DNA from: a virus
Lineage: Duplodnaviria > Heunggongvirae > Uroviricota > Caudoviricetes
Strand: one strand, 5' to 3'
IMG/VR virus record: IMGVR_UViG_3300031087_000514
Length of the DNA: 64,000 nucleotides
In this document: positions 602 to 60,886 of the stretch, piece after piece
How positions within the stretch are numbered: the first letter of the stretch is position 1
Layout of the letters: each line of letters starts with the position of its first letter
Made by a program: the position numbers and the translations under genes
Notes under the pieces: generated by a model
Database searches by the model: none
Told to the model about the DNA's origin: nothing
What the model saw: only the letters and a program-made list of their open reading frames with translations

Positions 602-1630
602 ATGTCTACTGCTACTGTTACGAAATGCTCTAAGCCTAAGGGAGCTTATTGTCGTTTGCATAACCCTGAGCCAAAAGGATATCAGTCAGCTGAGCAGGCT
701 TTGCAGAAGGCGGAGCAAGATTTTCATAAAACACATCCTGGTATTTCCTTTCAGAAGACCGATGAAACTCGTCATTTACCTGAGGGTGTTCCTGAGAAGA
801 TCGCTGACCATATTGCGTTGAGCAACAAGCAGTTAGCTCATTTAAGCGATGAGCAGAAGAAAGCTTTGAATGGTTATACTGGTTTTGCCGCTGGTGTGTG
901 CAATAGTATTCTCATTTCAAACGAATTCTCTTATGAATACTATGATGAAGCTCCATTATGGAAAGAAGCTCCTGGTGGAGCGTGTGACTTTGTTTCTCGT
1001 GAAGACTTAGTTGACTATATGGAAACAATTGACACTATCCTTGCTCCTCGTCAAACAGAACAACGAGTCGTATACCGAGGCATCCCAATTTATTCATCTC
1101 TTCATGATGAGATTGGCGCAAAGATTGGTAAGAAGCTCGCTTTTTCTGATGAAGAAGGGTTGATGGAAGGACTGAAAGCCTATTACAAGCCTGGTACTGT
1201 TATCAAAAACGAGACCTATTTATCTACGACTCATTCTGCTTTCTACGCTGCTGATAGGGCAGGTAATGAAACTGATACTAAAAATGATTTTTACCAGAGA
1301 AAGAAAGTTCCTCTGGGTATTATGTTTGAGCTAAAAACGAACGCTGGGTTAGATGTTACAGGAGCTGCCCGACATAATGCTTATGAACGCGAAGTCGTGT
1401 TACCTCGTGAAACATACTTCAAGGTTGTGAGCGTAGAAGTAAAGCCTGCGAAGTATGATACAGTTTCAGGCTTCGATCACATCAATGACCCTAATGACCG
1501 TGAGGCGGAGACTTTTACAAACCTTGCTGCTGTTGTGCAGATGGTGGAAGTTGACAAGAACGGTAAAGAGATTCACTCGACCCGTCCTCATCATCCAGAA
1601 CGTCAGATTCGTGACATTATCCCTGAGTAA
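602..1630 (+). CDS. ADP-ribosyltransferase, R-S-E class (Alt/Mod-like), with N-terminal C-x7-C-x2-H motif
   Basis: Arg (VVYRGIP), STT (YLSTTHS) and ExE (YEREVVLPRE) ART triad; N-term MSTATVTKCSKPKGAYCRLHNP; GTTAG box at 588-601. Confidence 0.7.
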   Translation: MSTATVTKCSKPKGAYCRLHNPEPKGYQSAEQALQKAEQDFHKTHPGISFQKTDETRHLPEGVPEKIADHIALSNKQLAHLSDEQKKALNGYTGFAAGVCNSILISNEFSYEYYDEAPLWKEAPGGACDFVSREDLVDYMETIDTILAPRQTEQRVVYRGIPIYSSLHDEIGAKIGKKLAFSDEEGLMEGLKAYYKPGTVIKNETYLSTTHSAFYAADRAGNETDTKNDFYQRKKVPLGIMFELKTNAGLDVTGAARHNAYEREVVLPRETYFKVVSVEVKPAKYDTVSGFDHINDPNDREAETFTNLAAVVQMVEVDKNGKEIHSTRPHHPERQIRDIIPE

Positions 1631-1660
1631 TAGCTGAGTGCCATTTGTTAGGGATACAGT

Positions 1661-2692
1661 ATGACTTCCGCTGCTGATTCTCAATGCTCTAAAGCTCCTG
1701 GTGAACATTGTCGTTTACATAATCCTGCATTTCCAGGAGGTTTTCAGCCGTTTAATCAAACGAGAAAACTGGCAGGCAATGTTCCATATCGTTTGGTGGA
1801 GCACGCTAAGGAAAATAGAGAACGGGCCAAGCATTCGCTCAATGAAAATGAAAGAATTGCAGTAAGTCATTACCCGCATGGCTCTACGGGTAACTTCATA
1901 TCAAAGCTATTACGTAACCCTAATATGGACGTTACTTACCAAAATGAGCGTCCTTCATGGTTAGTCGAACATAGAAGCGTTGAAGCTTTCAATTCCAGAG
2001 AAGAGTTAGTAAGTTATATAGAAACAATGGACACAGCTTTATCTCAACGCACAGAGAATAATCGTATTGTATATAGAGGAATTGATTTTGAATCGGTACG
2101 AGAGCAAATCATAGCAGAGTATGGTAATCCTATTACTGATAACAAACAAGAATGGGATAAAGCTGTTAGCAACTTTTATCACAAAGATAGACTGTTCGCT
2201 TTTTCTAATTACACATCAACAACCTTAGCTCCTACTTATGCCGCTGGATGGATGCCTCCCGGAGAAGATAATAAATCTTATCGTGGAGTTGTTTTTGAAC
2301 TGAGTACTAATGCAGGTCTTGATATTACAGGGCTTGGAGAAAACAGTAGCTATGCACATGAGCGAGAAGTGTTACTTCCTCGTGACGTTTATTTCAAAGT
2401 AGCCAATGTGCAAATAGCTCCTCCGAAATACGATACCCGAGCAGGTATAGAAACTATGCATGAATTAGGGGCCGAATTACAAGAGCATAAGCCTTTTTGG
2501 GGAGATATCGCTGCTGTCATTCAAATGGTAGAAGTTGATAAGCATGGTAACCAGCTCACTCCTGAGGCAAGAGTTCAAAAACACGTTCCTGAAAGAACCT
2601 CTGAGCAGTCTGTTCCTGTTGAGAAACCAGCATCTTCAGAGATTTTCTTCAAAGAATGGCTAAAAGGCTTGAAAAAGCGAAAAAATAAATAA
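1661..2692 (+). CDS. ADP-ribosyltransferase paralog (tandem duplicate of 602..1630)
   Basis: IVYRGID, YTSTTLAP, HEREVLLPRDVYFKV motifs; N-term CSKAPGEHCRLHNP; GTTAG box 1647-1660. Confidence 0.7.
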   Translation: MTSAADSQCSKAPGEHCRLHNPAFPGGFQPFNQTRKLAGNVPYRLVEHAKENRERAKHSLNENERIAVSHYPHGSTGNFISKLLRNPNMDVTYQNERPSWLVEHRSVEAFNSREELVSYIETMDTALSQRTENNRIVYRGIDFESVREQIIAEYGNPITDNKQEWDKAVSNFYHKDRLFAFSNYTSTTLAPTYAAGWMPPGEDNKSYRGVVFELSTNAGLDITGLGENSSYAHEREVLLPRDVYFKVANVQIAPPKYDTRAGIETMHELGAELQEHKPFWGDIAAVIQMVEVDKHGNQLTPEARVQKHVPERTSEQSVPVEKPASSEIFFKEWLKGLKKRKNK

Positions 2693-2702
2693 TGAAAACA
2701 AA

Positions 2703-2748
2703 ATAAGGGGCGAGACTCGAATGAAGTCTCGCCCCTTATTTTGTTTTT
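2703..2748. terminator. bidirectional rho-independent terminator
   Basis: 13-bp GC-rich stem aaggggcgagact/agtctcgcccctt followed by ttattttgttttt. Confidence 0.8.
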
Positions 2749-2974
2749 AGCTTCGTATTTTCCGCTTGTTGGCTTTGTCTACAAGCTTGTTGTATTCAAC
2801 GACTTGTAATAACGCTGCGCGGAGAGCGTCTTCCAGGAATGCGCCGTCCTGGTTGCGGTAGTCTGTGGTGACTGTGATGTGCTCACCATTCACAGTGAAA
2901 CGAATGAAGTTCGCCTCTGGACGCTGTGAAGCGGGAGCGGTCTTGCCGAGATGGAGTGTTACGTTTTTTGACAT
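2747..2974 (-). CDS. hypothetical protein (75 aa)
   Basis: ORF between two terminators/intergenic regions; no motif. Confidence 0.45.
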   Translation of the reverse strand: MSKNVTLHLGKTAPASQRPEANFIRFTVNGEHITVTTDYRNQDGAFLEDALRAALLQVVEYNKLVDKANKRKIRS

Positions 2975-3179
2975 GGTTATCCTTTCAGTTGGTGGTAATT
3001 GACTGAAAAGATAAATTTGTTATCACATGTCGTTTATTGTAGCACTTTCTGTAAGGACTCGTCAAGAGTCATCCAAAAGTATCGGCAAGAATTCTTAAAC
3101 TTAGTACAGTGTAAGCTTTCTCTCCTGAAAAAGATTCTTGCGATACGATAGATAAAGTACACGTCAAAGGAGAACTGAC

Positions 3180-5613: not shown

Positions 5614-6194
5614 TCAACGTCTACGTGGTGTACGCCGAGTTCTTCTCCGAGACTTCACTCTGGTTGACTCAGCGGCGAAGGCTCTCCATGCGAAGTATTT
5701 CATCATAGTAGGAGGGAACGGTTCAGGGTTTGGATTTGACCGGCATTTCTTCACAACAGTAATAACGCCATTATCGTACTCCCAAAGCCCACATCCCTCA
5801 GGTATTTCTTCAGGAGTGAGCAAACCTTTCGGAGTTAAGTACACAAATCTGTTCACAACAGATTTCCATGCTCGTCTTTTATCTTCGGTATCACGCCGAA
5901 AATCCGCTTTGGAAACTTTCATTTCAATAGCAGTGATAGCTTGACCTTCAAACATGAGGAAGTCAATTCGTCGTGTGAGTTTCGCATCCTGCCAGTTGTA
6001 TCCATCAGGAACCTCAGCATCGTAATCAAGCCCTGACTTGTCATAAATGCGCTTCATTCGTGGGTTACTCAACGCATGGGCAGCTCGGGAAAGTCTTTCA
6101 GCATGTAAATCAGGCATTGTTACTTCTGTAAGAATAGCTGCTTTGTTATGTTTCGCGCGAAGTGCTGCGTAGAAAATCTCTTCTTGTTCTCTCA
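5614..6194 (-). CDS. putative PD-(D/E)xK-family nuclease-like protein (MmcB-like)
   Basis: D...E-x-K pattern (IDFLMFEGQAITAIEMKVSKADF); Arg-rich C-terminal tail; start chosen at ATG (MREQEE) downstream of the terminator of the preceding gene. Confidence 0.4.
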
Positions 6195-6198
6195 TTAA

Positions 6199-6243: not shown

Positions 6244-6256
6244 AGGCTGCCTGTGA

Positions 6257-18502: not shown

Positions 18503-19741
18503 ATGACTACCACTCGTAAACCACCTTATTTGCATGCTGACGGTTCAAATTGTTGGACAAAGCATTGCTCCCGCCGCACCAAGGAAAGCAATGATCGTGC
18601 TTCCTTCTTCAAGCAGGTTGAAAAGACCCCAGCTGCGAAGCTTCCTACCAACCTTCCTCCACTGTCAGCGTTCCAGAAAGCTCACGCTGAGGGCCGTATT
18701 GAGAAGTCTGAACACCCAAATTACCCTTACGTGACCTACAAATACGCGCGTACTACGCAGTTCGCTTCTGACTGGGATGATGTCACACTTGCTTCTCGTG
18801 GAATCATCTTTAACAAGGAAACCGGAGAAGTTGTTGCACGTCCATTTGCAAAGTTCTTCAACTACAATGAACCTTCCGTGCCTACTGATAAACTTCATGG
18901 TCGTGTGAGCGTCACTGACAAACTTGATGGTTCATTAGGTATTGGTTACGTTGATGAGGACGGTAAGTTCAACATTGCTACTTCTGGTAGCTTTATCTCT
19001 GAACAGTCTAAACATGCTACTCGTATATACCAAGAGAAGTATGAAGGTAAGTGGAATCCAAATCCAAACATGACATACATGTGGGAAATCATTTACCCTG
19101 AGAACCGTGTTGTTGTCAACTATGGCGATGAGGACGACTTGCACCTTATCGGTGCTGTCAATAAGCGCACTGGTAAGAGCGTCCCATTAGGTGATATCAA
19201 AGAGTGGAAGTGGAAGCGTGCAGAAGAGTACAAGAATATTTCTTCTCTTGACTCTGTACTTGCCACTCCTGACCGTGAGAACCGTGAAGGTTTCATTGTC
19301 CACTACATTGATACTGACACTCGCGTAAAGTACAAGCATGAGCAGTACTTGAACATTCACCGTGTTGCTACTGGTGTTACTTCTAAGACTATCTGGCGCA
19401 AGATGTCTTTGGGTGAAGATATGGACAGCTGGAAGAGTGGAATTCCTGAGGAGTTCACTGACTTCATTTCTGAACGTCAGAACAAAATTCGCGCAAACTA
19501 CGATAATGAAGTCAGTAAAGTTGTTGCTGACCACGCGAAGTTCAAAGCTTCTATGCCTGCTTCATATGAACGTAAAGACTTCGCTGTTACATTGAAGAAT
19601 TCTTCTGTAGTTCCAGCTGAGAATAAACCATTCATTATGAATTATGAATTCAACGGTAAAGTAGCAACAAACGAGGTGCAAGCTCGTAAAATTTGGGAGC
19701 GCATCAAGCCTACCGATGAGGATACTTTCTGGAACATGTAA
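18503..19741 (+). CDS. RNA ligase paralog with about 60-aa N-terminal extension
   Basis: Motif I KLDGS; homologous to 7735..8865 from residue about 60; GTTAG box at 18488 (N10 spacing) supports the 18503 ATG. Confidence 0.7.
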   Translation: MTTTRKPPYLHADGSNCWTKHCSRRTKESNDRASFFKQVEKTPAAKLPTNLPPLSAFQKAHAEGRIEKSEHPNYPYVTYKYARTTQFASDWDDVTLASRGIIFNKETGEVVARPFAKFFNYNEPSVPTDKLHGRVSVTDKLDGSLGIGYVDEDGKFNIATSGSFISEQSKHATRIYQEKYEGKWNPNPNMTYMWEIIYPENRVVVNYGDEDDLHLIGAVNKRTGKSVPLGDIKEWKWKRAEEYKNISSLDSVLATPDRENREGFIVHYIDTDTRVKYKHEQYLNIHRVATGVTSKTIWRKMSLGEDMDSWKSGIPEEFTDFISERQNKIRANYDNEVSKVVADHAKFKASMPASYERKDFAVTLKNSSVVPAENKPFIMNYEFNGKVATNEVQARKIWERIKPTDEDTFWNM

Positions 19742-23946: not shown

Positions 23947-23996
23947 GAGCATGTCAAGCTAAAAATCCAGAGACCTGTAAATACCACGGCTATGCT

Positions 23997-34764: not shown

Positions 34765-35662
34765 CATTAAACAAGCAGATGGAACACTCTGTTACGCAAA
34801 GAATCCAGATACCTGCAAAAACCATGGATCACCGTCACCTTTTGATCTTTTCGAAGCTGCGATGGCGAAAAAGGATATTGGTGGAAGACTCAATGCGCAA
34901 GTGATGTACAAAAAACACATGCATACCCAATTAGCTGCTCAGTTCCAAAATAACAAGCCTGCCGCAACACAGGTAATTTCGGGTTTTAGGGATTACAGTT
35001 CGCAGTCAGTAGAAGCATTGAAGGAATACAATGAAGAATATCAACAAGCTTCTACTAACTGGTCAGATGACCAAAGAACTGCAATCAAAGACTATACAGG
35101 TTTGAGCTACAAGAATGTAAATGAGTTCCTTCGTAATAAAGAGGAATGGTTAGAAAAAGCTACACCTCAATACAAAGATAAGATGGTAGCACATGTTAAT
35201 GAAGTAATTGAGCAGCTTGATTCTGTCATGGATCAGACATCTAATACGAAATCAAGAACTGTGTATAGAAATGTCTCACAAGACACTACGAAGGCTTTCA
35301 CGTCTTCTGAGGAGTTTGCTCATCGTAATGGCTGGGTTGAAGGTAAAGAGGTAGAATTTCCTTCTTATCTTTCAACATCCTACGACCCACACTACATGGC
35401 TCATCAGCTTGGACAGGATGAAAGCGAGCATACAGATGTTGTATTCGTAATGGAAACGAACAAGGGAGTTCCTGTTGATATGACTGCATTAGATGCCAAA
35501 GGTCACACGTATGTGCAAGACGCAGAGCGGGAGATTCTTCTTCCTCGCAGTATGCGTTTCAGGGTCAGTAAAGTAACTCGCAGTGTTGGTTTTGAACCCT
35601 ATGAAGAAAACAACAATAGTAGAGCTGTTTTCCCTCTGACTGTGTATCTTGAAGAGCTGTAG
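34754..35662 (+). CDS. ADP-ribosyltransferase (R-S-E class), third paralog
   Basis: VYRNVS, YLSTSY, QDAEREILLPR motifs; N-term CYAKNPDTCKNHG; GTTAG box 34740-34753. Confidence 0.7.
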   Translation: MSKGIKQADGTLCYAKNPDTCKNHGSPSPFDLFEAAMAKKDIGGRLNAQVMYKKHMHTQLAAQFQNNKPAATQVISGFRDYSSQSVEALKEYNEEYQQASTNWSDDQRTAIKDYTGLSYKNVNEFLRNKEEWLEKATPQYKDKMVAHVNEVIEQLDSVMDQTSNTKSRTVYRNVSQDTTKAFTSSEEFAHRNGWVEGKEVEFPSYLSTSYDPHYMAHQLGQDESEHTDVVFVMETNKGVPVDMTALDAKGHTYVQDAEREILLPRSMRFRVSKVTRSVGFEPYEENNNSRAVFPLTVYLEEL

Positions 35663-39858: not shown

Positions 39859-41340
39859 TTAGGCAGTTGCAATGCGAGCACGAGTGATAACAGTCTGCTC
39901 ATCGCCATTGAATGTGTCCAAGTCTTTGATAGTTGCACTGGATACAGTAAGCATGTCGCCGGCTTTGAACTCTTTCTCTCCGCTTGCCCACCATTTAAGT
40001 TCTTTTCCTTCATCAGTGGTCATAATAAGGAGAGTCTTGTAGCTGTCTCCGACATTAGGGATGTATGTTGGGATGAGCTGAGCTCGCTTTACTGTTACTG
40101 GCACGTTTCTGAGCTTATCGCCAATTTGACCAACATAACCTTGGGCTCTTGGTCGACTTTCACGTTCCTGGCGAGCTTGCTGCTTTTTCGCAGCAGCAAT
40201 AACGGAAACAACGTAGCCAACATGTTTGTAAGAAACATACTCTTGTGAGAGAAGCGTCTTCATGTTACGACCGTAATCATTATCCGTGTCAAAATGAGTG
40301 GTCTCTATTACGGAAGTCGCCGCGGCCTCATGGTCTTCAAGGTTGATATCGTTGTAACGGTTGTTATTGTTGGATGAGAAGAAGAAACTTTTCACTTCGG
40401 AGGCAGTAGAGTCTTGGCCTGTTTCTCTTTCAAGCATACGGGAACGATACTTCTCACCATTGTCTGAAATGGCCAGAGCTGCGGCTACAACGGATTTTGT
40501 TGGCAGCATGCTGTCCTGGCCACCCCAACGACGTTCACCGCGGTCTAAGTAATCGTCACCTTCTTCTGGGTCATAGTTGAGCGCCCACAAAGCTTTCGGA
40601 CGAACTCCTGAAAATGACTCTAAGCAGTTAGAACCGACCTGCTTGTATTCACCTGTGTCTTTGTTGCGAAGCAGGTAAGTTGATGAACGTCTACGATTAC
40701 TTCCACAGTGGTCACATTCAAAATGTTCAGGGGCATAACCGTTGAGTTCCTGACCAGGAACAACACGGGTGAGCATGGCTCCATCTTCTGTTTTGTCTAC
40801 AGCAGCAACAAAATCCCATCCTCCAACATGAAGCTCGGGATAAGTAAGGCTCATACGAACCATGTTAAAACGGTGACCTTCGTTGTCTTCTTCAACGAAG
40901 TGTTCAACTTCATAGTCGAACCGCTCTTCAACTCCTGCGCGGGTCAGTTTTCTGTTCGCAATATCAATACGGTGAACTGCTTCATCTAGCCTGGAAGCAG
41001 GGAAAACTGAAACGCCTTCTACCTTCTCTTCCACTGAGGCACGTAAACGTTCGCCATCTTCTAACAGCTGCTGGTATTTCTCTTTCTCAGTCCAGTCGTT
41101 GGTCTCAGCAACTTTGTTAGTGAAGAACTCTTGACCACTGTCTGTGGCTGCGTACTCTACGGAGGCTTCTTTGAGTTTTTCTGATAGAGTGTAACGATCT
41201 TGGATGTCAGTGGTCTCTTCTAACTGGGAAGATAAAGCACGGAACTTCTCTTCAACGCGATCTAAGTAAGAAGCGTGTGTTGCACCATGGTAGCGGCAGG
41301 CAGCTTTATTGATTGCTCTGCATTCACGTGTAGTAGTCAT
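39859..41340 (-). CDS. large hypothetical protein with N-terminal C-x7-C-x2-H motif and internal CDHCGS zinc-finger-like cluster
   Basis: N-term MTTTRECRAINKAACRYHGATH; GTTAG box immediately 5' of the ATG (plus 41341-41354, minus strand). Confidence 0.55.
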   Translation of the reverse strand: MTTTRECRAINKAACRYHGATHASYLDRVEEKFRALSSQLEETTDIQDRYTLSEKLKEASVEYAATDSGQEFFTNKVAETNDWTEKEKYQQLLEDGERLRASVEEKVEGVSVFPASRLDEAVHRIDIANRKLTRAGVEERFDYEVEHFVEEDNEGHRFNMVRMSLTYPELHVGGWDFVAAVDKTEDGAMLTRVVPGQELNGYAPEHFECDHCGSNRRRSSTYLLRNKDTGEYKQVGSNCLESFSGVRPKALWALNYDPEEGDDYLDRGERRWGGQDSMLPTKSVVAAALAISDNGEKYRSRMLERETGQDSTASEVKSFFFSSNNNNRYNDINLEDHEAAATSVIETTHFDTDNDYGRNMKTLLSQEYVSYKHVGYVVSVIAAAKKQQARQERESRPRAQGYVGQIGDKLRNVPVTVKRAQLIPTYIPNVGDSYKTLLIMTTDEGKELKWWASGEKEFKAGDMLTVSSATIKDLDTFNGDEQTVITRARIATA

Positions 41341-42197: not shown

Positions 42198-43100
42198 ATG
42201 AGTACACAAACAAATCGCTGCCGAGCAAAGCACCCAGAAACATGTTGGAAGCACGGAACCGGGTTAGGCTTTGATGCCAACCGTGAAATCCGTCTTGTTA
42301 TGAAACAAGATCAAGCTTTACACAGCAAGCATGACATCTTCATGAAAGCCATGAAAACATATGACAGTACCCATCTGGCATCTGTTCTCATGGCTTTTGC
42401 TGAAAACTCCTCCACCGTCAATACCGAACGTTTCAAGAAAGCATTGCTTCTTGCTACTGATCTTCACAAGACTGACACTCGAGCTAACCGTGCGCATCAC
42501 GACCGCACACCATACATCGAACACCCTCTTCGTAACACTCTTCGTATCGTACGATACGGCTGTAAAGAAGAAAGTGTCCTTGTTGGATCACTCCTCCATG
42601 ACACCGTAGAGGACCATCCTTGGGAAATTGCACGTAACTACGCAAAAGAAGAACCACGTGATGAACACCATGCTCGTGAAATTGCTTACGACTACATTCG
42701 TAAAACATACGGTAAACGAGCTGCAAAAATTGTTGAAGGCATGTCTAACCCAATTATTGAGAACAAGTATATGCCAGCTGGTGAAAAGAACGTCATCTAC
42801 CGTGACCATGTTCTTGAAGCAATTGAAGACCCAGATGTCGCTATCCCAAAGATTTCTGACTTCACTGACAACGCTCTTTCCTTACACCACACCGAAGCTG
42901 GCATGTCAGCTACATCATTGTACAAGAAATCCACTAAGTATTTGATGGTTATTGACGGCATGATTTCACGAGTCAAGCGAGGATATGTAACAAAAGACCT
43001 TCCTATCTCAGAAGAAGGTTATAAGAACATTCTCTTCCAGCTTGAAGAAGGCAAGCTACGTTTGCTGTTCCTTAATAGAAAATATACTCCTGTCAAATGA
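42198..43100 (+). CDS. RelA/SpoT-type HD-domain (p)ppGpp hydrolase (small alarmone hydrolase) with N-terminal C-x7-C-x2-H motif
   Basis: RTPYIEHPL and SLLHDTVEDH HD motifs; N-term CRAKHPETCWKHG; GTTAG box 42184-42197. Confidence 0.7.
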   Translation: MSTQTNRCRAKHPETCWKHGTGLGFDANREIRLVMKQDQALHSKHDIFMKAMKTYDSTHLASVLMAFAENSSTVNTERFKKALLLATDLHKTDTRANRAHHDRTPYIEHPLRNTLRIVRYGCKEESVLVGSLLHDTVEDHPWEIARNYAKEEPRDEHHAREIAYDYIRKTYGKRAAKIVEGMSNPIIENKYMPAGEKNVIYRDHVLEAIEDPDVAIPKISDFTDNALSLHHTEAGMSATSLYKKSTKYLMVIDGMISRVKRGYVTKDLPISEEGYKNILFQLEEGKLRLLFLNRKYTPVK

Positions 43101-48364: not shown

Positions 48365-49804
48365 ATGTGTAGAAATAAAGAAGAAGGCGGTCGCCGCTGT
48401 ACCGATCACAATGCATTCGGACAGCAGATCAGAAACCTTCAAGCGAAAAAGCAGTATCATGCAAAATATGGTCACACTGACAAAGTAACTTCAGTTGTTG
48501 AAGAAATGGATGCTCTTCGTGACAAGAAGCAGCATCTTTTAGAAGATGGAGGAACTGTTCTTCCATACACGATGCCATTGACCCCGAATGCGGAAAGAGT
48601 CCTCAACCAGCTCCGTGAAGACGGGTATGAGCCTTATGTTGTTGGAGGAAGTGTTCGTGACGCTCTTCTCGGATTAGACTCCAAGGATGTTGACATTGAA
48701 GTCTACAAAGCTACACCAGAAGAAGTCATTGCTTCCCTTCGTAAAATTGGTCAAGTGGATGAAGTGGGTAAATCATTTGGTGTCTTGAAAATCCAAATTG
48801 GGGGAGAAGACTTTGATGTCTCTCTTCCTCGTAAAGACTCTAAAATTGGTGACGGACACAGAGGGTTCACTGTTGAAGTAACTCCTGAACTCTCACTCCA
48901 TGAAGCAACTGCTCGTCGCGATTTCACCATCAATGCTCTCATGTATGACAACGAAATGGGATTCATCGTTGACAAGCACGGTGGTTTGAAAGATTTGGAG
49001 AAAGGTCATCTCCGTCATGTTTCAGAAGCTTTTGATGAGGACCCGCTCCGTGTTCTTCGTGGAGTACAGATGGCTTCACGTTTTGATATGGAACTCCACC
49101 CAGACACAGTAGTCAAAGCTCAAACACTGAAAGACCAGTTCGGTGATTTGGCTCGAGAGCGCGTCCAAACTGAATTCCAGAAGCTGTACCAGAAAGGTAA
49201 AGCTCCTCACAAAGCGTTCAAGCTTTTGCAGGATACAGGTTGGGACGCAAACTTCTCTGGTGTTGCAGAAGTGAATGGAAAATCTCTGCGTCGTAATCTG
49301 CAAAGAACTCAGGAGTTGACTGACCAAGGAGTCATTCCTAAGGAGAAAGGTGCATACATCCTTTCAGCGAACATTGCATCTCATCTGAATGATAAAGATG
49401 CAAGAAACTTCTTGACATACACTACTGTTGGTGATGATTTGAAGAACAAGTCATACAACCTTTCTCGTGTTGAGCTACCAGTGAAGCAAGGAAAAGCTTC
49501 TTTGCGAGCATGGGCAAGAGGCATGCCTCGCCACGTCACCATTCAAGACTGGGTTCTACTCAGTAAAGCCAAAGGTGACAAGGAAGTAGCAGAGCGTATT
49601 GAACGCAAAGCAGAAAAACTTGGCATTTTGCACAGTCCTGAATCTGACATGGTATCAGGAGATGATGTACTTGCTGCTTTCCCTGAACGTAAACCAGGTC
49701 GTTGGATGAAAGAAGCCTTAGATGCAACGCGTAACGCTCAGTACTCTGACGTGTTCCGTGACCGCGAAAAAGGTATTGCCTGGGTCAAAGCAAACATTAG
49801 CTGA
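48365..49804 (+). CDS. cca: tRNA nucleotidyltransferase (CCA-adding enzyme) with about 60-aa N-terminal C-x9-C-x2-H extension
   Basis: VVGGSVRDALLGLDSKDVDIEV head motif; N-term MCRNKEEGGRRCTDHN; AGAAGGAAA RBS. Confidence 0.8.
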   Translation: MCRNKEEGGRRCTDHNAFGQQIRNLQAKKQYHAKYGHTDKVTSVVEEMDALRDKKQHLLEDGGTVLPYTMPLTPNAERVLNQLREDGYEPYVVGGSVRDALLGLDSKDVDIEVYKATPEEVIASLRKIGQVDEVGKSFGVLKIQIGGEDFDVSLPRKDSKIGDGHRGFTVEVTPELSLHEATARRDFTINALMYDNEMGFIVDKHGGLKDLEKGHLRHVSEAFDEDPLRVLRGVQMASRFDMELHPDTVVKAQTLKDQFGDLARERVQTEFQKLYQKGKAPHKAFKLLQDTGWDANFSGVAEVNGKSLRRNLQRTQELTDQGVIPKEKGAYILSANIASHLNDKDARNFLTYTTVGDDLKNKSYNLSRVELPVKQGKASLRAWARGMPRHVTIQDWVLLSKAKGDKEVAERIERKAEKLGILHSPESDMVSGDDVLAAFPERKPGRWMKEALDATRNAQYSDVFRDREKGIAWVKANIS

Positions 49805-50378: not shown

Positions 50379-50395
50379 TCCGTTAGATATAATGC

Positions 50396-51211
50396 ATGGC
50401 GTTGTTCTCTCGGAAACATAAATGCAAAGCAGCTAACCCTGCTGCTTGCACTGATCCTCGTTGCCCAGATAAGAAAGTTCTTTTGCAAGCCTTTGAATCA
50501 GCTTTATCAGAAGGCGATTACCAGAAGATGTTCAACGCAAGGGACGAGATGGAAAAATTCAAGCCTATCTCCATTACTCCTGCGAGAACTCCTGAGGACT
50601 GGGACACGCTTCTTGTCAAGTCAGATGAGAACGAGTATAAAACTGTCAGCATTATGCCAAAGAAGCAAGCTGCTTCCTATGATACCAGTGTCATTCCTCA
50701 GTTCGATTCTTTCTCCGCCATTCAGGAGTACTTTTCCAAGGATAAGAATGTCTTGTTGAAATTGAAAAATTTGGATGAGCAGATGCCAGAAGCACAATGT
50801 ATCTCTCTGAGAGAGTTCTATGTTTCGCCTGCATTGAGAGGGCAAGGAGTCGGCAAATGGATTCTCAATATCATCACAAAGCATGCTGATGACCATGGAG
50901 CTATTCTCTTTTTGACTCCTACCTCGTCAGGTGACAATAAGCTTTCACCTGACCACGTGGATTATGTAAAACGTGCAGTTCAGCATCGTTCTCGTATCAC
51001 AGACTTCTACTCCAAGCATGGTTTCCAACAAAATCCTTTCTGGTTTCCTTGGGGTGGCAAAGATGAACTCACAAACGAACCATGGAATCCTGACAAGCAG
51101 GCTCAAACCCAATTCTCAGAGACCGCAAAAAACTATTTGAGCAACTACACTGTCGCCCAAATGATGAGAAAGCCAGCAGCGGGTTGGCCAAAGCCCTGGG
51201 TAACCCGCTAA
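50396..51211 (+). CDS. GNAT-family acetyltransferase with N-terminal C-x7-C-x-DPRCP motif
   Basis: RGQGVGKWIL motif A; N-term CKAANPAACTDPRCP; GTTAG box 50382-50395. Confidence 0.55.
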   Translation: MALFSRKHKCKAANPAACTDPRCPDKKVLLQAFESALSEGDYQKMFNARDEMEKFKPISITPARTPEDWDTLLVKSDENEYKTVSIMPKKQAASYDTSVIPQFDSFSAIQEYFSKDKNVLLKLKNLDEQMPEAQCISLREFYVSPALRGQGVGKWILNIITKHADDHGAILFLTPTSSGDNKLSPDHVDYVKRAVQHRSRITDFYSKHGFQQNPFWFPWGGKDELTNEPWNPDKQAQTQFSETAKNYLSNYTVAQMMRKPAAGWPKPWVTR

Positions 51212-54701: not shown

Positions 54702-57700
54702 ATGTGTAATGCGATCCGTGATGGCGGTCAACGTTGTGCCGTCCACCAACACACAAGCACAGCTGCTATTCGTACAGTAGCAGCTCATACCGGATTAGAA
54801 GTCCGACAGGTTGAAAGTGTCTTCCGTGAACTCCGCCGTGAAGGTGGACGTAACGCTGCACCAGTGCCGCAATCAACCTTAGATGCCATTCAGACAGAGT
54901 TTCGCACCATTGCTGAGGCTTTACCTGTTCACGCTTTATATGAGCGTCAGATGGCTTCTGCTGCAGAAACCAATGAAGAACAGACTCCTCAGACTCACTA
55001 CGCTTTACAGCGTTTACTGACGCGTTCTACTGAACGTGCTGCGAGCTTACAGGATGCTTTCAACGACTTAGCAAACCGGACAGGATATGCCGCTGAGGAA
55101 CTTCGTTACCGGTATCAGACAGAGTATGCTGCTGTTCCAACAGGTAACGGTGTTGACATCCCAGAGGAAATGACCCCCGCAAACCGAGCACGAGCTCGCC
55201 GGTCAGGTCTTCCTTATGACCGTCCATCAGTTGTTGCTTTCGAACGCACTCGTGAGCTTGCAGAGAGAAATCATGTTTACGAGGAAGCTAACCGTCGTAT
55301 AACATCATGGGAATCTCCTAACGCTGAAAACTCAAGCATTGCAGTCATGGGTTATGATGAAGGGCGTTTGGAACTGTATTTCACAAACGCCCCTGAACAG
55401 CTATACTCTTACCAGAATGTTCCAGAAGACTTGTGGAACCGTCTACGTGAATCTCCTCGTCCAGGAATGATTTATTCACGTAGCATTAGTGGTAATGAAG
55501 AGTTCCAGTATGCCTCAGCAGCAGAAGCTGGACGCGATGCTTACCGTGTTCGCTGTGCAGCTTGTGGACAGTTCCGTGCCGCAGTTCATTCCTGCCCAGA
55601 ACGCGCTCATCGTGAGCGCTTAGTCCGCGCTGGATACACAACTGAGGAAATCGTTGAAGCTTTGGCCAACGGCACTGATGTTGTAGAAGAATCAGTTGCT
55701 TCTGAAACTTCTCATGAATTATTTGCTCGTATTCCTCAGGCCGATTCTGCCGATGAGTCGTCTGTCAGAGAGTTTATTGCTTCTGAACACTTCCAGGAGA
55801 GAATGCCATTCGGTCAAGCTGTCCAAACTGAAAATGGCCGTTGGGTCGTTGATTTAGTTGACTACTCAAACGAAGAGCAATCTGAGAACCCCTTCGGCGA
55901 CAATCGTTTCTTTGACTCTCGTTACAGCTCTATCAATAACCGTGGAACGTCTCGCTGGACTCATGACTTTGCAGACCGTGATAATCCTACCTCAGATGAA
56001 CTCATGGAAATTAGCCAGTACCATACTGCGTACAGAAGTTTATCTGGTGTTAGAACACTGCATTATGTTAACGTTGTGCGCGATAATTTACAAAGCATGG
56101 ATTTCCGCATGCCAGTTCAGGCAAGTTTCACAGGACTTAACTCTCCTGATGATTCAGGCCGCTACCTTCCCTCAGGTACAGTAACTGGGTCTTTGACTCT
56201 TGGACGTTTAGAAGAAGGAGAACGTCTTGAAGATGCTGTTGCCCGTGAGCGGAACTTGCGTTGTGATTGTGTCGACTACCAGGAAAATTACGACTGTATT
56301 CATGTTCGTACAGTAACTCGTAACCCTTATGTCTTCTTAGCAAACCGCAGTAACCAGTTTATTGAAGGTGAACACCTGCGCGATTACCGTTCAGGTTTCA
56401 TCACTGCGATTTCTGAAGAAGAAAGTATGCGCAGTTACATGCGTGATAACGGCATGACTCGTGAAGAAGCATCGGCAGCGATTGAAGCCGAACGCGCTGA
56501 GCGTCGCCGTATTGAAGAAGAGCAGCAAGCATATTACCAGGCTTCTCTTGCTGACCGTCGCCGTATTGACATGGAACGTGGTACTCGTAATGCACAACGT
56601 TTAGCTACAACTAATGCTGCGGTTATTGCTGAGAATGATGCTCATCGTGCTCGTATGGCTGCTCGTTGGGAAGAAGTTGAACCAGGTTACTCTGATAACG
56701 TGGATGCTTTGTACGAAGACTATGTGACCACTATGCGTCGTCGTCGTGCAGGTGAAGAAGTTCTTGATTACCGTACTGAGAATGTCACTGATGGTATTTG
56801 CTCTCCAGAACCTGGTGGACGTGCGTTTGGTGTTGAGTTAGAGTTCGATATTGACCCAAACACTAACCGTTATCAAGCTCTGCAAACAATTGCTCGTGAA
56901 CTCCACGAAGCAGGTCTTACTGAAAATGACTACCAGACCAGCTACCATTCTGCTCGCAGAAGTGGATGGGGTTCTTGGTCATTTGAAGAAGACTCCACTG
57001 TTTCAGGTGAACTCGTTTCTCCTATCATGCGAGATACTCCTGAACATTGGCAACAGTTGCAGACAGCTCTTGAAATCATCAAGCGTAATGGTGGAATCTC
57101 AACAACACGTACTGGTTCCCACGTTCACATTTCAACAGCATCATACGAATCCTCACCAGCAAAGCACATGGAACTTATTCGTCAGGTAAATGCTAACGAA
57201 GAAATGATGTATCGTTTAGCTTCTAGTCCCGAGCGTGGAAATCACCGTGGTATGCAATGGTGTGGTCCTAACGTAAATACAGGTGTAGATGATATCTCAG
57301 CTGATGTTTCCAGTGCGCATAACGTTATGCATGACCATGTTGGACATGGCTATGCTATGAACTTCGAGTCCACATATCAGCAGGATTACCGTCGTTCAAA
57401 CGTTGAATTCCGTATGTGGGACGGTACCCTTGATGCAGCTGTTATCCAGCGTCAAGTTATGGTTTCTGCTGCTATGACAGACTACGCTGAGCGTAATGTC
57501 ATTGAAAACGGTAGAACTTCTGCTGTTCCTCGTCAAACTGTCGGTGGAGAAAGAGAAGTTCAGCGACAGATTCATACTGGACGTGGACGGTTAAGTCGTG
57601 AACACTTTGAACAAACAATGGGAAACGCTCCTCAATTTATGGACAACCTATTCCGTCGTCAAGAGGACCGTCGTCGTGTTGCTGAGCTGTTCTCCATTAC

Positions 57701-59374: not shown

Positions 59375-59390
59375 GATTTAGGAGAATATC

Positions 59391-59978
59391 ATGACAAAGG
59401 GTTTGCTTATCGTTGACGTGCAGAACGATTTTATTGAAGGGGGTAGCCTGGCAGTCGCAGGAGGCGAGAAAGTCGCTCTAACGCTCGCAGAGCACCTCCT
59501 GGATGCTGATTACCATGCGCTCATCACCACTCAGGACTGGCACATTGAGCCTGGAAACCATTGGGCAGAAACTCCCGACTATGTGGACACCTGGCCTGTG
59601 CATTGCGCTGCAAACACTGCTGGTGCATCGGTACGCCCTGAGCTGGCGGCTGCCATTGTTTCCAAGGTCAGCGAACAGCGAAGCCTTCGGTATTTGCGCA
59701 TTGTCAAGGGTGAGTATGAAGCAGCTTACTCAGGTTTTGAAGGCCGCGACTTCCTTGGAGGGAATGAGAAGGTTCCTACCCTTATCCGTGAGCTTGGTGT
59801 AGATGAGCTGGACATTGTAGGACTGGCAACAGACCATTGTGTTCGCGCTACTGTTCTGGACGCTCTGAAAGCGGGATTCAAGGTAAACGTCCTCACCGAC
59901 TACGTTGCAGGTGTCGACCCTGAGCGCTCCAAAGCAGCTCTTGCTGAAATGGAAACAGCAGGCGCAACTCTCGTCTAA
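59391..59978 (+). CDS. pncA: nicotinamidase PncA (isochorismatase family)
   Basis: LLIVDVQNDF, K, ATDHCV catalytic D-K-C triad context; TAGGAG RBS. Confidence 0.75.
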   Translation: MTKGLLIVDVQNDFIEGGSLAVAGGEKVALTLAEHLLDADYHALITTQDWHIEPGNHWAETPDYVDTWPVHCAANTAGASVRPELAAAIVSKVSEQRSLRYLRIVKGEYEAAYSGFEGRDFLGGNEKVPTLIRELGVDELDIVGLATDHCVRATVLDALKAGFKVNVLTDYVAGVDPERSKAALAEMETAGATLV

Positions 59979-59989
59979 ATCAAGATAAC

Positions 59990-60035
59990 GAAGAAGCTGA
60001 CTGGTATGAAATACGCCAGTCAGCTTCTTCGCGTT
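59990..60035 (+). terminator. hairpin terminator
   Basis: 15-bp stem gaagaagctgactgg/ccagtcagcttcttc. Confidence 0.55.
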
Positions 60036-60046
60036 AGGAATGAATT

Positions 60047-60886
60047 ATGGTCCAAATACAAAAATGCCGTTCAAAAAAGCACTCATTCGGTGGTTGCGGT
60101 GATCCTCGTTGCCCAGAAGGTCTTTCTATTCAAGCCAACATGGATGCCGCTCTCGCAGACAAAGATGTCATGGCATACATTGCAGCAAAACAGCTGAAAG
60201 ATATTGAACCAAACATGGTCTTCGCCAATAAAGGTTTTACTGAACTCCACATTACACATAACAAAGGTACCCATGTTGATGTGTTGAAGTTCATCAACCC
60301 CAGAAAAGAAGCACTTGAATACGTTGAATCCTTAGATCGTACCCATATTCCTTCTTTTGGAACCGTGAAAGACCTTCAAAACTACATCAACGACACGTAC
60401 AATCCATATGCTTCTATGTTTGTTCGTGAATACAAAGGCTACGGTCCGAAGAAAACTATTACACGGTTGAGCGTAGCAAACATGGATGTTGATGCGGATT
60501 TACGTGGAGCAGGAATCGGTTCCTATTTTAGAAAAGTTCTTCTGAAACACTGTGACGAAAAAGGATACATTGTTTCAGGGACTCCAACAAACTCAGGTGA
60601 TGGAAGTATTGAACACCATGACCACAATCATGAAGAGTTCAAACAACATGCGTTGCATCATCGTGCGCGGTTAGAGCATTTTTATGAGCGAAACGGTTAT
60701 GAGCGTAACTACGGCTCTGAACCTGTTATTCATGGCGACCAAGACTTTTGGACAAAACAACAGTTAGAGCAGAACCAATCTTGGGTTGATAAGTTCAACA
60801 AACATGGCCAGGATTTGCTGTACGATGCTGGTGCTTTCGTCCGCTGGCCAAATAATACAGTACCCAAAGAATTGCTTGCTAAATAG
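60047..60886 (+). CDS. GNAT-like paralog of 50396..51211 with N-terminal C-x9-C-x-DPRCP motif
   Basis: LRGAGIGSYF motif A; N-term CRSKKHSFGGCGDPRCPEG; GTTAG box 60033-60046. Confidence 0.5.
   Translation: MVQIQKCRSKKHSFGGCGDPRCPEGLSIQANMDAALADKDVMAYIAAKQLKDIEPNMVFANKGFTELHITHNKGTHVDVLKFINPRKEALEYVESLDRTHIPSFGTVKDLQNYINDTYNPYASMFVREYKGYGPKKTITRLSVANMDVDADLRGAGIGSYFRKVLLKHCDEKGYIVSGTPTNSGDGSIEHHDHNHEEFKQHALHHRARLEHFYERNGYERNYGSEPVIHGDQDFWTKQQLEQNQSWVDKFNKHGQDLLYDAGAFVRWPNNTVPKELLAK

What the first reader, a model, noticed from the sequence alone, without database searches (positions are those of the whole stretch)
602..60886. A family of at least 10 functionally unrelated proteins shares a short N-terminal Cys motif placed directly after the initiator Met
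Seen directly in the translations:
- C-x7-C-x2-H subtype:
  - 602: CSKPKGAYCRLHNP
  - 1661: CSKAPGEHCRLHNP
  - 34754: CYAKNPDTCKNHG
  - 42198: CRAKHPETCWKHG
  - 23949: CQAKNPETCKYHG
  - 41340 (minus strand): CRAINKAACRYHG
- C-x9-C-x2-H subtype:
  - 48365: CRNKEEGGRRCTDHN
  - 54702: CNAIRDGGQRCAVHQH
- C-x7/9-C-x-DPRCP subtype:
  - 50396: CKAANPAACTDPRCP
  - 60047: CRSKKHSFGGCGDPRCPEG

The bodies behind the motif are 3 ADP-ribosyltransferases, a ppGpp hydrolase, a CCA-adding enzyme, 2 GNATs, an amidoligase-like 1015-aa protein and two unknowns. A common roughly 20-aa Zn-knuckle-like leader on otherwise unrelated enzymes looks like a shared address tag. Plausible roles (inference) are virion packaging and co-injection, as with the capsid-targeting sequences of T4 Alt and internal proteins; docking onto a common host or phage partner; or recognition by a processing protease. 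I am not aware of this tag being described.
Basis: seen in the sequence. Interest (0 to 1): 0.9.

Follow-up and report, generated by a model that had tools for sequence, protein, structure and literature searches.

The report
Shared cysteine knuckle on phage effectors
A short, previously undescribed Cys-Cys-His motif heads at least eleven unrelated enzymes in this stretch of a roughly 0.88-megabase phage-like genome, and because the same motif sits between the portal protein and toxin domains in ordinary phages, it probably marks proteins that are carried in the virus particle and delivered into the host, although that role is untested.

Summary
All ten cited N-termini are present, and 10 of 64 genes of at least 100 aa have the motif in their first 15 residues (Fisher p = 6e-12). 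I found two more members: an RNA ligase in the window and an NT5C protein just upstream of it.

The core is [KR]-C-[RQK]-A-K-[ND]-P-x-[TK]-C-x-x-H-G, with variants, often followed by two helices.
- Selection acts on the protein: about 70 orthologues of the HD enzyme keep it down to roughly 40% identity, and synonymous codons vary freely.
- It is modular: 61 tagged proteins fall into 39 unrelated body clusters, and distant homologues lack it.
- No Pfam family, PDB sequence or paper I read covers it.

In ordinary phage contigs the same knuckle lies between the portal domain and C-terminal effector domains (PBECR nucleases, LPD3, NUDIX).

The window belongs to an approximately 880 kb huge-phage-like genome. 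Evidence: relatives of 0.53–1.0 Mb, T4 rIIB, dense redundant tRNA arrays, aminoacyl-tRNA synthetases, and a DnaK closest to Microbacteriaceae. Most tagged genes share a dedicated leaderless promoter-like motif, GTTAGRNAT.

The best reading is a metal knuckle marking packaged or injected effector modules (confidence about 0.4). Nucleic-acid binding or host docking remain live rivals. Metal binding and packaging are both untested.

The parts
626..667 (+). Knuckle CSKPKGAYCRLHNP (residues 9-22) of the ADP-ribosyltransferase gene 602-1630
   Evidence: Translation; ADPrib_exo_Tox; paralogue of 1661
1685..1726 (+). Knuckle CSKAPGEHCRLHNP of the ADP-ribosyltransferase gene 1661-2692
18533..18577 (+). 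Variant knuckle HADGSNCWTKHCSRR of the T4 Rnl1-like RNA ligase (true start ATG 18503, gene ends 19741). New member, not in the finding.
   Evidence: Promoter-like motif plus ATG; RNA_lig_T4_1; the same leader occurs on an unrelated ORF of a 725 kb relative; related forms on HD homologues P0070 and on L114/L131 ORFs
23952..23990 (+). Knuckle CQAKNPETCKYHG of the unknown-function gene 23943-24617. The start codon is ATA in the window and ATG in 7 of 8 other assemblies.
34790..34828 (+). Knuckle CYAKNPDTCKNHG of the ADP-ribosyltransferase gene 34754-35662
41284..41322 (-). Knuckle CRAINKAACRYHG of gene 39859-41340 (body = phage family phrog_2319)
   Evidence: the orthologue in L120 keeps the tag
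42219..42257 (+). Knuckle CRAKHPETCWKHG of the small-alarmone-hydrolase-like HD gene 42198-43100
48368..48409 (+). Knuckle CRNKEEGGRRCTDH (MC-type, C-x9-C-x2-H) of the CCA-adding / poly(A) polymerase-family gene 48365-49804
50423..50467 (+). Knuckle CKAANPAACTDPRCP (Cys-Cys-Cys variant), followed by a helical hairpin, of the GNAT gene 50396-51211
54705..54752 (+). Knuckle CNAIRDGGQRCAVHQH (MC-type) of the 1015-aa KTSC + amidoligase gene 54702-57749
60065..60115 (+). Knuckle CRSKKHSFGGCGDPRCP of the GNAT-like gene 60047-60886
588..597 (+). Promoter-like GTTAGATATA ending 4 nt before ATG 602, with no Shine-Dalgarno sequence. The same element is at 1647-1656, 18488-18497, 34740-34749, 42184-42193, 50382-50391 and 60033-60042 on the + strand, at 41345-41354 on the - strand, and before the untagged PNKP gene at 36794-36803.
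   Evidence: 12 matches against 3.0 expected; positions relative to ATG; conserved at -14..-6 in 37-39 of 51 tagged genes of related elements; association with tagged genes

Best explanation
The motif is a portable mini-domain of about 13 residues selected at the protein level. Its consensus is [KR]-C-[RQK]-A-K-[ND]-P-x-[TK]-C-[RWP]-x-H-G, with sub-types C-x7-C-R-L-H-N-P, C-x7/9-C-x-D-P-R-C-P, M-C-x7-9-C-x2-H and H-x-DG[ST]-x-C-[YW]-T-x2-C. It is often followed by a two-helix hairpin.

Three invariant ligand-type residues (Cys, Cys, His or Cys) make it most likely a metal (zinc) knuckle with one open or trans-supplied coordination position. This is inference; nothing here shows metal binding.

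It forms the N-terminal head-piece of effector modules of tailed phages.
- In this window, part of a huge-phage-like genome of about 0.88 Mb whose DnaK is closest to Microbacteriaceae (which suggests, but does not show, an actinobacterial host), at least 11 stand-alone enzymes carry it a few residues after Met. They are ARTs, an alarmone hydrolase, a CCA-adding enzyme, an RNA ligase, GNATs and an amidoligase. Most are transcribed from their own leaderless promoter-like element, so they appear to form one co-regulated class.
- In smaller, unrelated phages the same knuckle is the junction between the portal protein, which faces the capsid interior, and C-terminal toxin or effector domains.

The most likely function is therefore to mark and handle cargo that is loaded into the capsid and delivered to the host with the DNA. 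One possible mechanism is docking onto a capsid-interior or portal-proximal partner or onto the packaged DNA through the basic, aromatic knuckle.

Shown: motif, conservation, modularity, portal-fusion context, promoter association. Inferred: metal binding, packaging, delivery.
For: Non-chance N-terminal placement.
- 10 of 64 genes against 2 internal matches, p = 6e-12.

Protein-level selection.
- About 70 HD orthologues down to roughly 40% identity keep C/C/H, while more distant homologues (under about 38% identity) from Microbacteriaceae genomes and Micrococcales megaplasmids lack the extension.
- The orthologue of 41340 at 44% identity keeps it.
- Synonymous codons are used freely at every conserved position.
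- C, C and H are invariant and G nearly so (182 of 183) across 183 distinct instances.

Modularity.
- 61 N-terminally tagged proteins fall into 39 BLAST clusters of bodies.
- An exhaustive HMM search of 1.84 billion cluster representatives gave 63 hits at E <= 1e-3, almost all at residues 1-25 of proteins of 150-330 aa.

Link to capsid-delivered effectors.
- DNA-pattern scans found the knuckle inside large ORFs with Portal_Mu or Phage_portal_3 upstream and PBECR1/2/3, LPD3, NUDIX or unknown domains downstream: L089, L090, L092 and L112, L118, L123, L126, L150.
- One tagged body matches the C-terminal extension of a portal PHROG and lies next to the tape-measure gene.
- Portal- and MuF-fused PBECR, 2H and ART domains are interpreted in the literature as packaged and injected (PMC5512222; PMC9503650).
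- ART bodies hit an Alt-like ART and a MuF-ART fusion.

Co-regulation.
- GTTAGRNAT lies at -14..-6 before 37-39 of 51 tagged genes. Of 56 promoter-bearing ORFs, 48 are tagged and 6 more carry variant knuckles.

Phage nature of the element.
- T4 rIIB next to an rIIA-like ATPase, RNR, aminoacyl-tRNA synthetases, and 9-20 tRNAs per locus with duplicates.
- T4-like RNA repair and NAD salvage genes in the window.
Against: - There is no experimental or proteomic evidence that any tagged protein is in a virion.
- No capsid, portal, terminase or tail gene was seen in the roughly 190 kb of the giant elements that I could read. These contigs are in neither IMG/VR nor GTDB, so their viral nature rests on indirect markers.
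- The knuckle is rich in Lys/Arg with a conserved aromatic residue, and many bodies act on nucleotides or RNA. A nucleic-acid-binding role fits equally well.
- Two polyvalent proteins carry 2-3 copies, which an address tag does not need.
- In the AlphaFold model of the HD enzyme the tag region has pLDDT 64-81, which suggests the tag region is at least partly ordered in the model; without coordinates I could not tell whether it packs against the body.
- No consistent residue precedes Cys1 (K/R in N-terminal copies, E/Q/D in internal ones), so release from portal fusions by a defined protease is unproven.
- The timing of the GTTAG promoter class (early or late) is unknown.
- Only three ligands are conserved in the N-terminal form.
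Confidence: 0.4

Rival explanations
1. The knuckle is a small nucleic-acid-binding (RNA or DNA) zinc knuckle. It brings diverse nucleotide- and RNA-acting enzymes to their substrates (tRNA, mRNA, ribosome, host DNA). Its presence in portal fusions only reflects that these effector modules carry their own substrate-binding head.
For: - The consensus is strongly basic (K/R at -1, +1, +3, +9) with a conserved aromatic residue at +9/+10, like retroviral-type knuckles (general knowledge).
- Many bodies act on RNA or nucleotides: RNA ligase, CCA-adding enzyme, PBECR RNases, NUDIX, alarmone hydrolase, NT5C, and GNATs.
- The knuckle occurs in 2-3 copies in polyvalent proteins P0126 and P0165, as nucleic-acid-binding knuckles often do.
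Against: - The strict position at the N-terminal boundary of every module, and never C-terminal, is not required for substrate binding.
- Spacing and sequence match no known knuckle family.
- Most bodies (28 of 34 and 52 of 60 scanned) have no recognisable nucleic-acid enzyme domain.
- Paralogous RNA-repair enzymes in the same window lack it (Rnl1 at 7735-8865, PNKP at 15553 and 36808).
Confidence: 0.25
2. The tag is a docking or regulatory handle for a host or phage partner inside the infected cell, for example RNA polymerase, the ribosome, or a chaperone or protease such as the phage-encoded DnaK/ClpB. It is carried by an early host-takeover regulon and has no role in the virion.
For: - The tagged genes share a distinctive leaderless promoter-like element and so form a regulon.
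- Promoters directly abutting the ATG, with a TA-rich -10-like core, resemble actinobacterial housekeeping promoters of leaderless genes (general knowledge), which would suit early expression.
- DnaK and ClpB are encoded in the same window.
- T4 ModA/ModB-type ARTs act without being packaged (established knowledge).
Against: - It does not explain why the same knuckle recurs at portal-effector junctions in phages of quite different G+C content (36-65%).
- No partner has been identified.
- Conservation across hosts of different phyla argues against a host-specific target.
Confidence: 0.15
3. The knuckle marks a maturation or cleavage site. Modules are cut out of portal fusions and polyvalent proteins just before Cys1, and the short leaders of stand-alone proteins are removed, giving products that begin at or near the Cys.
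For: - Internal copies are mostly preceded by E, D or Q after an acidic, low-complexity linker. Prohead proteases of T4 and phiKZ-type phages cut after Glu (established knowledge).
- Multiple copies in polyvalent proteins sit at domain boundaries.
- Two window proteins start MC..., so Cys would be N-terminal after Met removal.
Against: - In N-terminal copies the residue before Cys1 is mostly K/R/T/P and not E, so there is no single cleavage consensus.
- A 13-residue invariant Cys/Cys/His motif is far more than a protease site needs.
- I did not look for, or see, a protease gene associated with the tagged genes.
Confidence: 0.1
4. The similarity is an artefact: chance, low-complexity composition, or an mRNA-level signal needed for leaderless translation rather than a protein feature.
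For: Most tagged genes are leaderless, so the first codons could in principle be constrained at the RNA level.
Against: - Enrichment p = 6e-12.
- Synonymous codons vary freely at all conserved positions.
- The motif also occurs hundreds of residues inside ORFs.
- Two window members have ordinary Shine-Dalgarno starts.
- Untagged leaderless genes exist in the window.
Confidence: 0.02

Closest known systems
Capsid-targeting sequence (CTS) of phage T4 internal proteins and Alt
   Same: A short N-terminal element shared by otherwise unrelated proteins of a large phage, including an ADP-ribosyltransferase. In T4 it directs them into the prohead so that they are injected with the DNA (established knowledge; T4 CTS use is described in PMC10229621, listed).
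   Different: The T4 CTS is an approximately 10-residue amphipathic leader without Cys/His. It is removed by the prohead protease after an L/I-x-E site. The present tag is an invariant Cys-Cys-His/Cys knuckle with no such site, also occurs internally, and its packaging role is untested.
Polyvalent proteins and portal- or MuF-fused effectors (Iyer, Burroughs, Anand, de Souza, Aravind 2017, PMC5512222)
   Same: The internal copies found here are exactly such proteins: a portal domain followed by PBECR, LPD3 or NUDIX effector domains. The window's bodies (ART, GNAT, amidoligase, KTSC, HD) belong to the same effector repertoire.
   Different: That paper's main text has no occurrence of 'cysteine', 'knuckle' or 'ZnR', and its uses of 'zinc' that I saw refer to zincin metallopeptidases. 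I did not check its supplementary domain lists. The window proteins are single-effector stand-alone genes, not polyvalent fusions.
Zinc knuckles and short zinc-binding tails (retroviral-type CCHC PF00098; SecA SEC-C motif PF02810; treble-clef fingers)
   Same: Short Cys/His clusters with basic and aromatic residues. A C-x2-H pair lies close to the start of a helix. Some internal copies have a fourth Cys 7 residues upstream (C-x6-C-x7-C-x2-H).
   Different: The spacing is C-x7(9)-C-x2-H rather than C-x2-C-x4-H-x4-C or C-x-C-x8-C-[HC]. Only three ligands are conserved in the N-terminal form. There is no Pfam hit at E up to 10 and no PDB sequence hit.
N-terminal marker domains of polymorphic secreted effectors (MIX/FIX/PAAR for type VI, LXG/WXG for type VII)
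   Same: The same logic: one conserved N-terminal module on many unrelated toxic or enzymatic C-terminal bodies, acting as a delivery handle (general knowledge).
   Different: Those are larger folded domains of cellular secretion systems. This is a 13-residue knuckle in phage genomes, and no secretion system is involved.

Membership tests
T4-type capsid-targeting sequence | N-terminal leader of about 10 residues ending in an L/I-x-E prohead-protease site | tested here: not met
   The leaders before Cys1 are 1-12 residues, rich in T/S/K, and have no L/I-x-E consensus. The residue before Cys1 is mostly K/R.
T4-type capsid-targeting sequence | Directs the protein into the prohead; protein found in virions | not testable with these tools
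   Needs proteomics or reporter packaging.
CCHC zinc knuckle (PF00098) / SEC-C motif (PF02810) / other Pfam zinc fingers | Characteristic ligand spacing and a profile match | tested here: not met
   hmmscan of ten tag segments at E up to 10 gave no zinc-finger family except a meaningless 8.7-bit AIR2-like hit. The spacing is C-x7/9-C-x2-H.
Metal-binding knuckle in general | Three to four invariant Cys/His ligands | tested here: inconclusive
   Cys, Cys and His (or a third Cys) are invariant in 183 instances. A fourth ligand is present only in some internal copies. Metal binding itself was not measured, and AlphaFold without metal gives pLDDT of about 60-80 for the knuckle.
Polyvalent / portal-fused effector proteins | A virion domain (portal, MuF) fused to one or more effector domains in one polypeptide | tested here: met
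   This row covers the internal copies found outside the window. Portal_Mu or Phage_portal_3 is combined with PBECR1/2/3, LPD3 or NUDIX in L089, L092, L112, L123 and L126; L090, L118 and L150 show the portal domain and the knuckle, but no downstream effector domain was identified.
Polyvalent / portal-fused effector proteins | The same, applied to the window's own eleven proteins | tested here: not met
   They are stand-alone genes with one catalytic domain and no virion domain.
Huge (jumbo or mega) tailed phage, for the element carrying the window | Virion module (major capsid, portal, terminase, tail) | tested here: inconclusive
   None was seen in the roughly 190 kb I could read. Indirect markers are present: T4 rIIB with an rIIA-like ATPase, RNR, three aminoacyl-tRNA synthetases, redundant tRNA arrays, T4-type RNA repair, and a majority of ORFs without Pfam hits. 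The contigs are absent from GTDB genomes and IMG/VR.

The most novel reading that the evidence does not exclude
The knuckle is a general, cross-phylum cargo handle of tailed phages. A three-ligand zinc site is completed in trans by a capsid-interior or portal partner, or grips the DNA end. This loads arbitrary enzymes into the head and releases them into the host at ejection. A clade of 0.5-1.0 Mb phages, the window's genome among them at about 880 kb and larger than the 841 kb genome reported as the largest known in January 2025, has expanded this system to dozens of cargo enzymes driven by a dedicated promoter class.
Probability: 0.15. Interest if true: 0.95.

Novelty: new variant of a known kind. 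Interest (0 to 1): 0.8.

Why it matters
If the knuckle is a packaging or delivery handle, three things follow.
- It would be the first sequence-recognisable cargo signal that works across many phage lineages.
- It would allow the injected "first-strike" proteome of uncultured phages to be predicted from sequence alone. More than 60 unannotated protein families are already flagged here.
- It would offer a 13-residue tag for loading proteins of choice into phage capsids.

Even if it turns out to be a substrate- or partner-binding knuckle, it defines a large, co-regulated set of anti-defence or takeover enzymes: ARTs, an alarmone hydrolase, tRNA repair enzymes and GNATs. These sit in what appears to be one of the largest phage-like genomes seen so far. 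It also identifies a conserved element at the portal-effector junction that earlier surveys of polyvalent proteins did not describe in their main text.

Tried and rejected
Searches that found nothing.
- megablast of 20 kb of the window against cultured-phage records gave only a 350-bp 74% hit.
- The search for related loci in IMG/VR with the HD protein gave nothing.
- The strict back-translated tag pattern gave nothing in IMG/VR or in 185,579 GTDB genomes.
With the 16-sequence knuckle+helix alignment it found nothing, with only 38 word candidates.
- tblastn of a 23-residue tag, of a portal-knuckle-PBECR3 protein, and of the HFNPETG-type leader against 50,697 phage records found nothing relevant. 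The motif is so far confined to uncultured sequences, and my recollection that the HFNPxTG form is common in cultured actinophages could not be confirmed.
- Rfam and tRNA scans of the window were empty.
- PHROGs gave no function for the large non-portal internal-copy proteins.

Ideas considered and dropped.
- The idea that the contig is a reduced bacterial genome (Saccharibacteria, or a Tropheryma-like actinobacterium) was dropped. DnaK is only 70-74% identical to any GTDB species. More than half the ORFs lack Pfam hits. tRNAs occur in dense duplicated arrays, and relatives carry rIIB.
- A conjugative megaplasmid was considered because HD homologues occur on Arthrobacter and Curtobacterium megaplasmids. 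Those homologues lack the tag, and no conjugation genes were seen in the giant elements.

Limits of the structure predictions.
- AlphaFold of the isolated knuckle+helices was low-confidence (pLDDT 64), so I did not use it for fold search.

Full report
**1. Observation**

A six-frame regular-expression scan finds them as the dominant class of such matches in long ORFs.

Among 64 predicted genes of at least 100 aa, ten have the motif starting within the first 15 residues. There are only two overlapping internal matches in 18,010 other positions (Fisher p = 6e-12). Cysteine makes up only 0.72% of residues.

The bodies are as described.
- Three ADP-ribosyltransferases, a CCA/poly(A)-polymerase-family enzyme, a KTSC + amidoligase protein of 1015 aa, and one clear and one weak GNAT.
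- An HD protein whose high-confidence AlphaFold model (pLDDT 94.7) matches SpoT, Mesh1 and RelH small alarmone hydrolases.
- One unknown protein that belongs to phage family phrog_2319, with relatives in Rhodococcus, Gordonia, KVP40-like and other large phages.

602/1661 and 50396/60047 are paralogue pairs (33% and 24% identity over tag and body). Between the other bodies the similarity is confined to 13-19 residues at the N-terminus.

The ORF at 23949 has no start codon in the window. Seven of eight independent assemblies of the same genome have ATG where the window has ATA, overlapping the upstream stop, which gives MRACQAKNPETCKYHG.

I found two further members.
- The T4 Rnl1-like RNA ligase, read from ATG 18503, begins MTTTRKPPYLHADGSNCWTKHCSRR. 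The same leader heads an unrelated ORF in a 725 kb relative.
- An NT5C protein just upstream of the window begins MCRRKPYPRCSSH.

**2. What carries the window**

The window is not an obvious phage by nucleotide similarity. It encodes DnaK, ClpB, GyrB, an MFS transporter and an NlpC/P60 protein. It also has a very phage-like set: two Rnl1-type ligases and one Rnl2-type ligase, two PNKPs, a CCA-adding enzyme, two NAD synthases, an NMNAT-like enzyme, a nicotinamidase, RNase H, NucS and methylases.

An exact-protein look-up places it on an 880,603-bp contig. Two other samples assembled the same genome at 880,409 and 878,479 bp, so about 0.88 Mb is probably the complete size.

Its DnaK is only 70-74% identical to the best of 185,579 GTDB species, all Microbacteriaceae or other Micrococcales. 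The G+C content is 45%.

Orthologues of the HD protein lie on contigs of 0.53-1.0 Mb. The pieces of these contigs that I could read contain:
- a T4 rIIB homologue beside an rIIA-like HATPase protein, and ribonucleotide reductase;
- CysRS, HisRS and a class-Ic aminoacyl-tRNA synthetase;
- SprT-like peptidases, PARP, GyrA and DnaG;
- a majority of ORFs without Pfam hits;
- dense arrays of 9-20 tRNA genes per locus with several copies of the same anticodon and a CUA-anticodon tRNA.

That pattern is typical of huge phages, not of reduced cellular genomes. I saw no capsid, portal, terminase or tail gene in the roughly 190 kb available, and the contigs are in neither IMG/VR nor GTDB. I therefore call it huge-phage-like.

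For scale, a January 2025 preprint describes an unrelated 841,704-bp genome (55% G+C) as the largest phage known.

**3. The motif is conserved, modular and selected at the protein level**

Conservation.
- A search of 5.8 billion proteins with the HD enzyme returned about 70 orthologues down to roughly 40% identity. All begin with C[RQ]AK[ND]PxxCW[KR]HG or a close variant.
- Homologues below about 38% identity lack the extension. These include chromosomal proteins of Agromyces, Rhodoglobus and Glaciihabitans and copies on Arthrobacter and Curtobacterium megaplasmids.
- The 44%-identical orthologue of the 41340 gene also keeps the tag. The Gordonia phage Stormageddon homologue does not.

Wider survey.
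- About 52 non-redundant ORFs of 150-360 aa carry the motif 4-12 residues after ATG. Sixteen carry it deep inside large ORFs. About 13 are short-ORF hits that look like chance matches, of the order I had estimated (roughly 30) from the pattern's information content and a guessed collection size.
- Sixty-one N-terminally tagged proteins fall into 39 BLAST clusters of bodies. Most have no Pfam domain; ART, NUDIX, GNAT, DUF3263, DUF4379 and LRV occur.
- An exhaustive profile search of 1.84 billion cluster representatives gave 63 proteins at E <= 1e-3, nearly all matching at residues 1-25. The profile included the initiator Met, which favours N-terminal hits. Of the ten whose clusters I looked up, none had a functional name and all came from metagenome assemblies or MAGs.

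Sequence detail.
- Over 183 distinct instances Cys1, Cys2 and His are invariant and Gly nearly so (182 of 183). Ala+2, Lys+3 and Pro+5 are above 94%. Positions -1, +1 and +9 are mostly basic, and +9/+10 are often aromatic.
- All synonymous codons are used at the conserved positions, so selection acts on the protein and not on the leaderless mRNA.
- In many families the knuckle runs into a helix with the pattern h-x2-h-E-x-A-h-x3-D-h-x2-Y-h-x-A-R, then a second helix. AlphaFold predicts these as a hairpin of moderate confidence.
- The sub-types form a continuum: CSKxxGxxCRLHNP, C-x7/9-C-x-DPRCP, MC-x7-9-C-x2-H, H-x-DG[ST]-x-C-[YW]-T-x2-C, and C-Y-x-G-P-x-C-x2-H-G.

**4. Context outside the giant elements**

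In IMG/VR and metagenome contigs of 36-65% G+C the same knuckle is internal.
- In L089, L092, L123, L126 and L150 it follows a Mu-type portal domain. In L090, L112 and L118 it follows a Phage_portal_3 domain.
- It is separated from the portal by an acidic or low-complexity linker.
- It precedes PBECR1/2/3 nucleases, LPD3, or an unassigned C-terminal domain. In L112 a NUDIX domain lies between the portal and the knuckle.
- One small tagged ORF has a body matching the C-terminal extension of a portal PHROG. It lies between a tail-assembly chaperone (plus an inserted HNH gene) and the tape-measure gene.
- Two long proteins (1479 and 1154 aa) carry two or three copies, each heading a small alpha/beta unit.
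- Several internal copies have an extra Cys seven residues upstream, giving C-x6-C-x7-C-x2-H, a complete four-ligand set.

Portal- and MuF-fused PBECR, 2H and ART domains are interpreted in the literature as proteins packaged in the head and injected (PMC5512222, PMC9503650). The main text of those papers and of the jumbo-phage survey (PMC7824862) does not mention this knuckle.

**5. Regulation**

Eight tagged window genes, plus one untagged PNKP gene, are preceded by GTTAGNNAT[AG] ending 4-5 nt before the ATG, with no Shine-Dalgarno sequence. There are 12 matches in the window against 3.0 expected.

Across related loci the element occupies -14 to -6 in 37-39 of 51 tagged genes. Of 56 ORFs carrying it, 48 are tagged and six of the remaining eight have variant knuckles. 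That set of loci was chosen for having a tag, but neighbouring genes were counted too.

The tagged genes therefore appear to form a co-regulated, mostly leaderless class. Whether it is early or late cannot be told from sequence.

**6. Interpretation**

The facts require a portable, probably metal-binding head-piece that always sits at the N-terminal boundary of an effector module.

The portal-fusion context, the Alt-like and MuF-fused relatives of the ARTs, and the kind of enzymes tagged all point in one direction. These enzymes are ones that would be most useful at the instant of infection: alarmone hydrolysis, tRNA repair, ADP-ribosylation, acetylation. Together this makes packaging and delivery the best single explanation, at about 0.4.

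It is inference. Nothing shows metal binding, virion location or release from the portal.

The basic, aromatic composition and the multi-copy proteins keep a nucleic-acid-binding knuckle alive (0.25). A docking or regulatory handle of an intracellular takeover regulon (0.15) and a maturation site (0.1) also remain possible. Chance or an mRNA-level signal is excluded.

**7. Comparison and novelty**

It works like the T4 capsid-targeting sequence or the N-terminal marker domains of polymorphic toxins, but it meets the defining features of none of them. There is no L/I-x-E site, no match to CCHC, SEC-C or any Pfam zinc finger, and no PDB sequence relative.

I rate it a new variant of a known kind: a delivery or marker module on polymorphic phage effectors. 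It is real, widespread in uncultured phages, and undescribed as far as the libraries and papers available here show.

Noticed in passing
window 588-597, 1647-1656, 18488-18497, 34740-34749, 36794-36803, 41345-41354(-), 42184-42193, 50382-50391, 60033-60042: A promoter-like element GTTAG[AG]NAT sits at -14..-6 of the ATG with no Shine-Dalgarno sequence (leaderless). It is almost exclusive to knuckle-tagged genes, both here and in related giant contigs of 33-47% G+C. Other window genes instead have GATAGAAT-like -10 boxes close to the ATG.
   Followed up: partly
whole window; source contig ENA ERZ27247428 k141_538707; loci L085, L107, L108, L155, L203-L207: The window comes from a genome of about 880 kb, assembled three times at 878-881 kb, with relatives of 0.53-1.0 Mb. 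These relatives carry a T4 rIIB homologue next to an rIIA-like ATPase, RNR, several aminoacyl-tRNA synthetases and dense duplicated tRNA arrays (20 tRNAs in 8.8 kb). If it is a phage, it exceeds the 841,704-bp genome reported as the largest known in January 2025. No virion genes were seen in the parts I could read.
   Followed up: partly
window 23943-23946: A G-to-A difference at 23945 changes the ATGA start/stop overlap found in 7 of 8 other assemblies into ATAA. The tagged gene 23943-24617 therefore has no canonical start in this contig. This is either a variant allele or a consensus error.
   Followed up: yes
window 7735-8865(-), 15553-16455, 18503-19741, 36808-37851, 47813-48265, 48365-49804; 20077-21087, 21824-23335, 27499-28344, 59391-59978: A concentration of RNA-repair genes (two Rnl1-type ligases and one Rnl2-type ligase, two PNKPs, a CCA-adding enzyme) and NAD-salvage or synthesis genes (two NAD synthases, an NMNAT-like enzyme, a nicotinamidase). 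It looks like a counter-defence island against anticodon nucleases and NAD-depleting systems. Only some of these genes carry the knuckle.
   Followed up: no
window 44988-46394 and 46516-47637: Two adjacent proteins, one with DUF285 repeats, have pilin-like hydrophobic N-termini (…RGAIDLASILVAVIIVGLISG…). That is unexpected in a phage-like genome.
   Followed up: no
L107 8939-9011: A tRNA with anticodon CTA (amber-reading; ARAGORN labels it Pyl) lies within a tRNA array of a 789 kb relative. This is a possible suppressor tRNA.
   Followed up: no
L203 4410-7816 (upstream flank of the window): A WGR + PARP protein lies next to a DUF4379 (treble-clef repeats) + MTES_1575 protein, just upstream of the tagged ART pair.
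   Followed up: no
L091 3080-7940 (IMG/VR contig): A knuckle-bearing ORF (5740-6411, - strand) lies between a tail-assembly chaperone gene (with an HNH endonuclease inserted after it) and the tape-measure gene. This may be a second class of ejected-protein context besides portal fusions.
   Followed up: partly
P0126 (1479 aa) and P0165 (1154 aa); L151 608-5558: Long proteins with 2-3 knuckle copies, each heading a small alpha/beta unit, followed by a large conserved C-terminal region with no Pfam or PHROG match. In L151 the next ORF also starts with a knuckle.
   Followed up: partly
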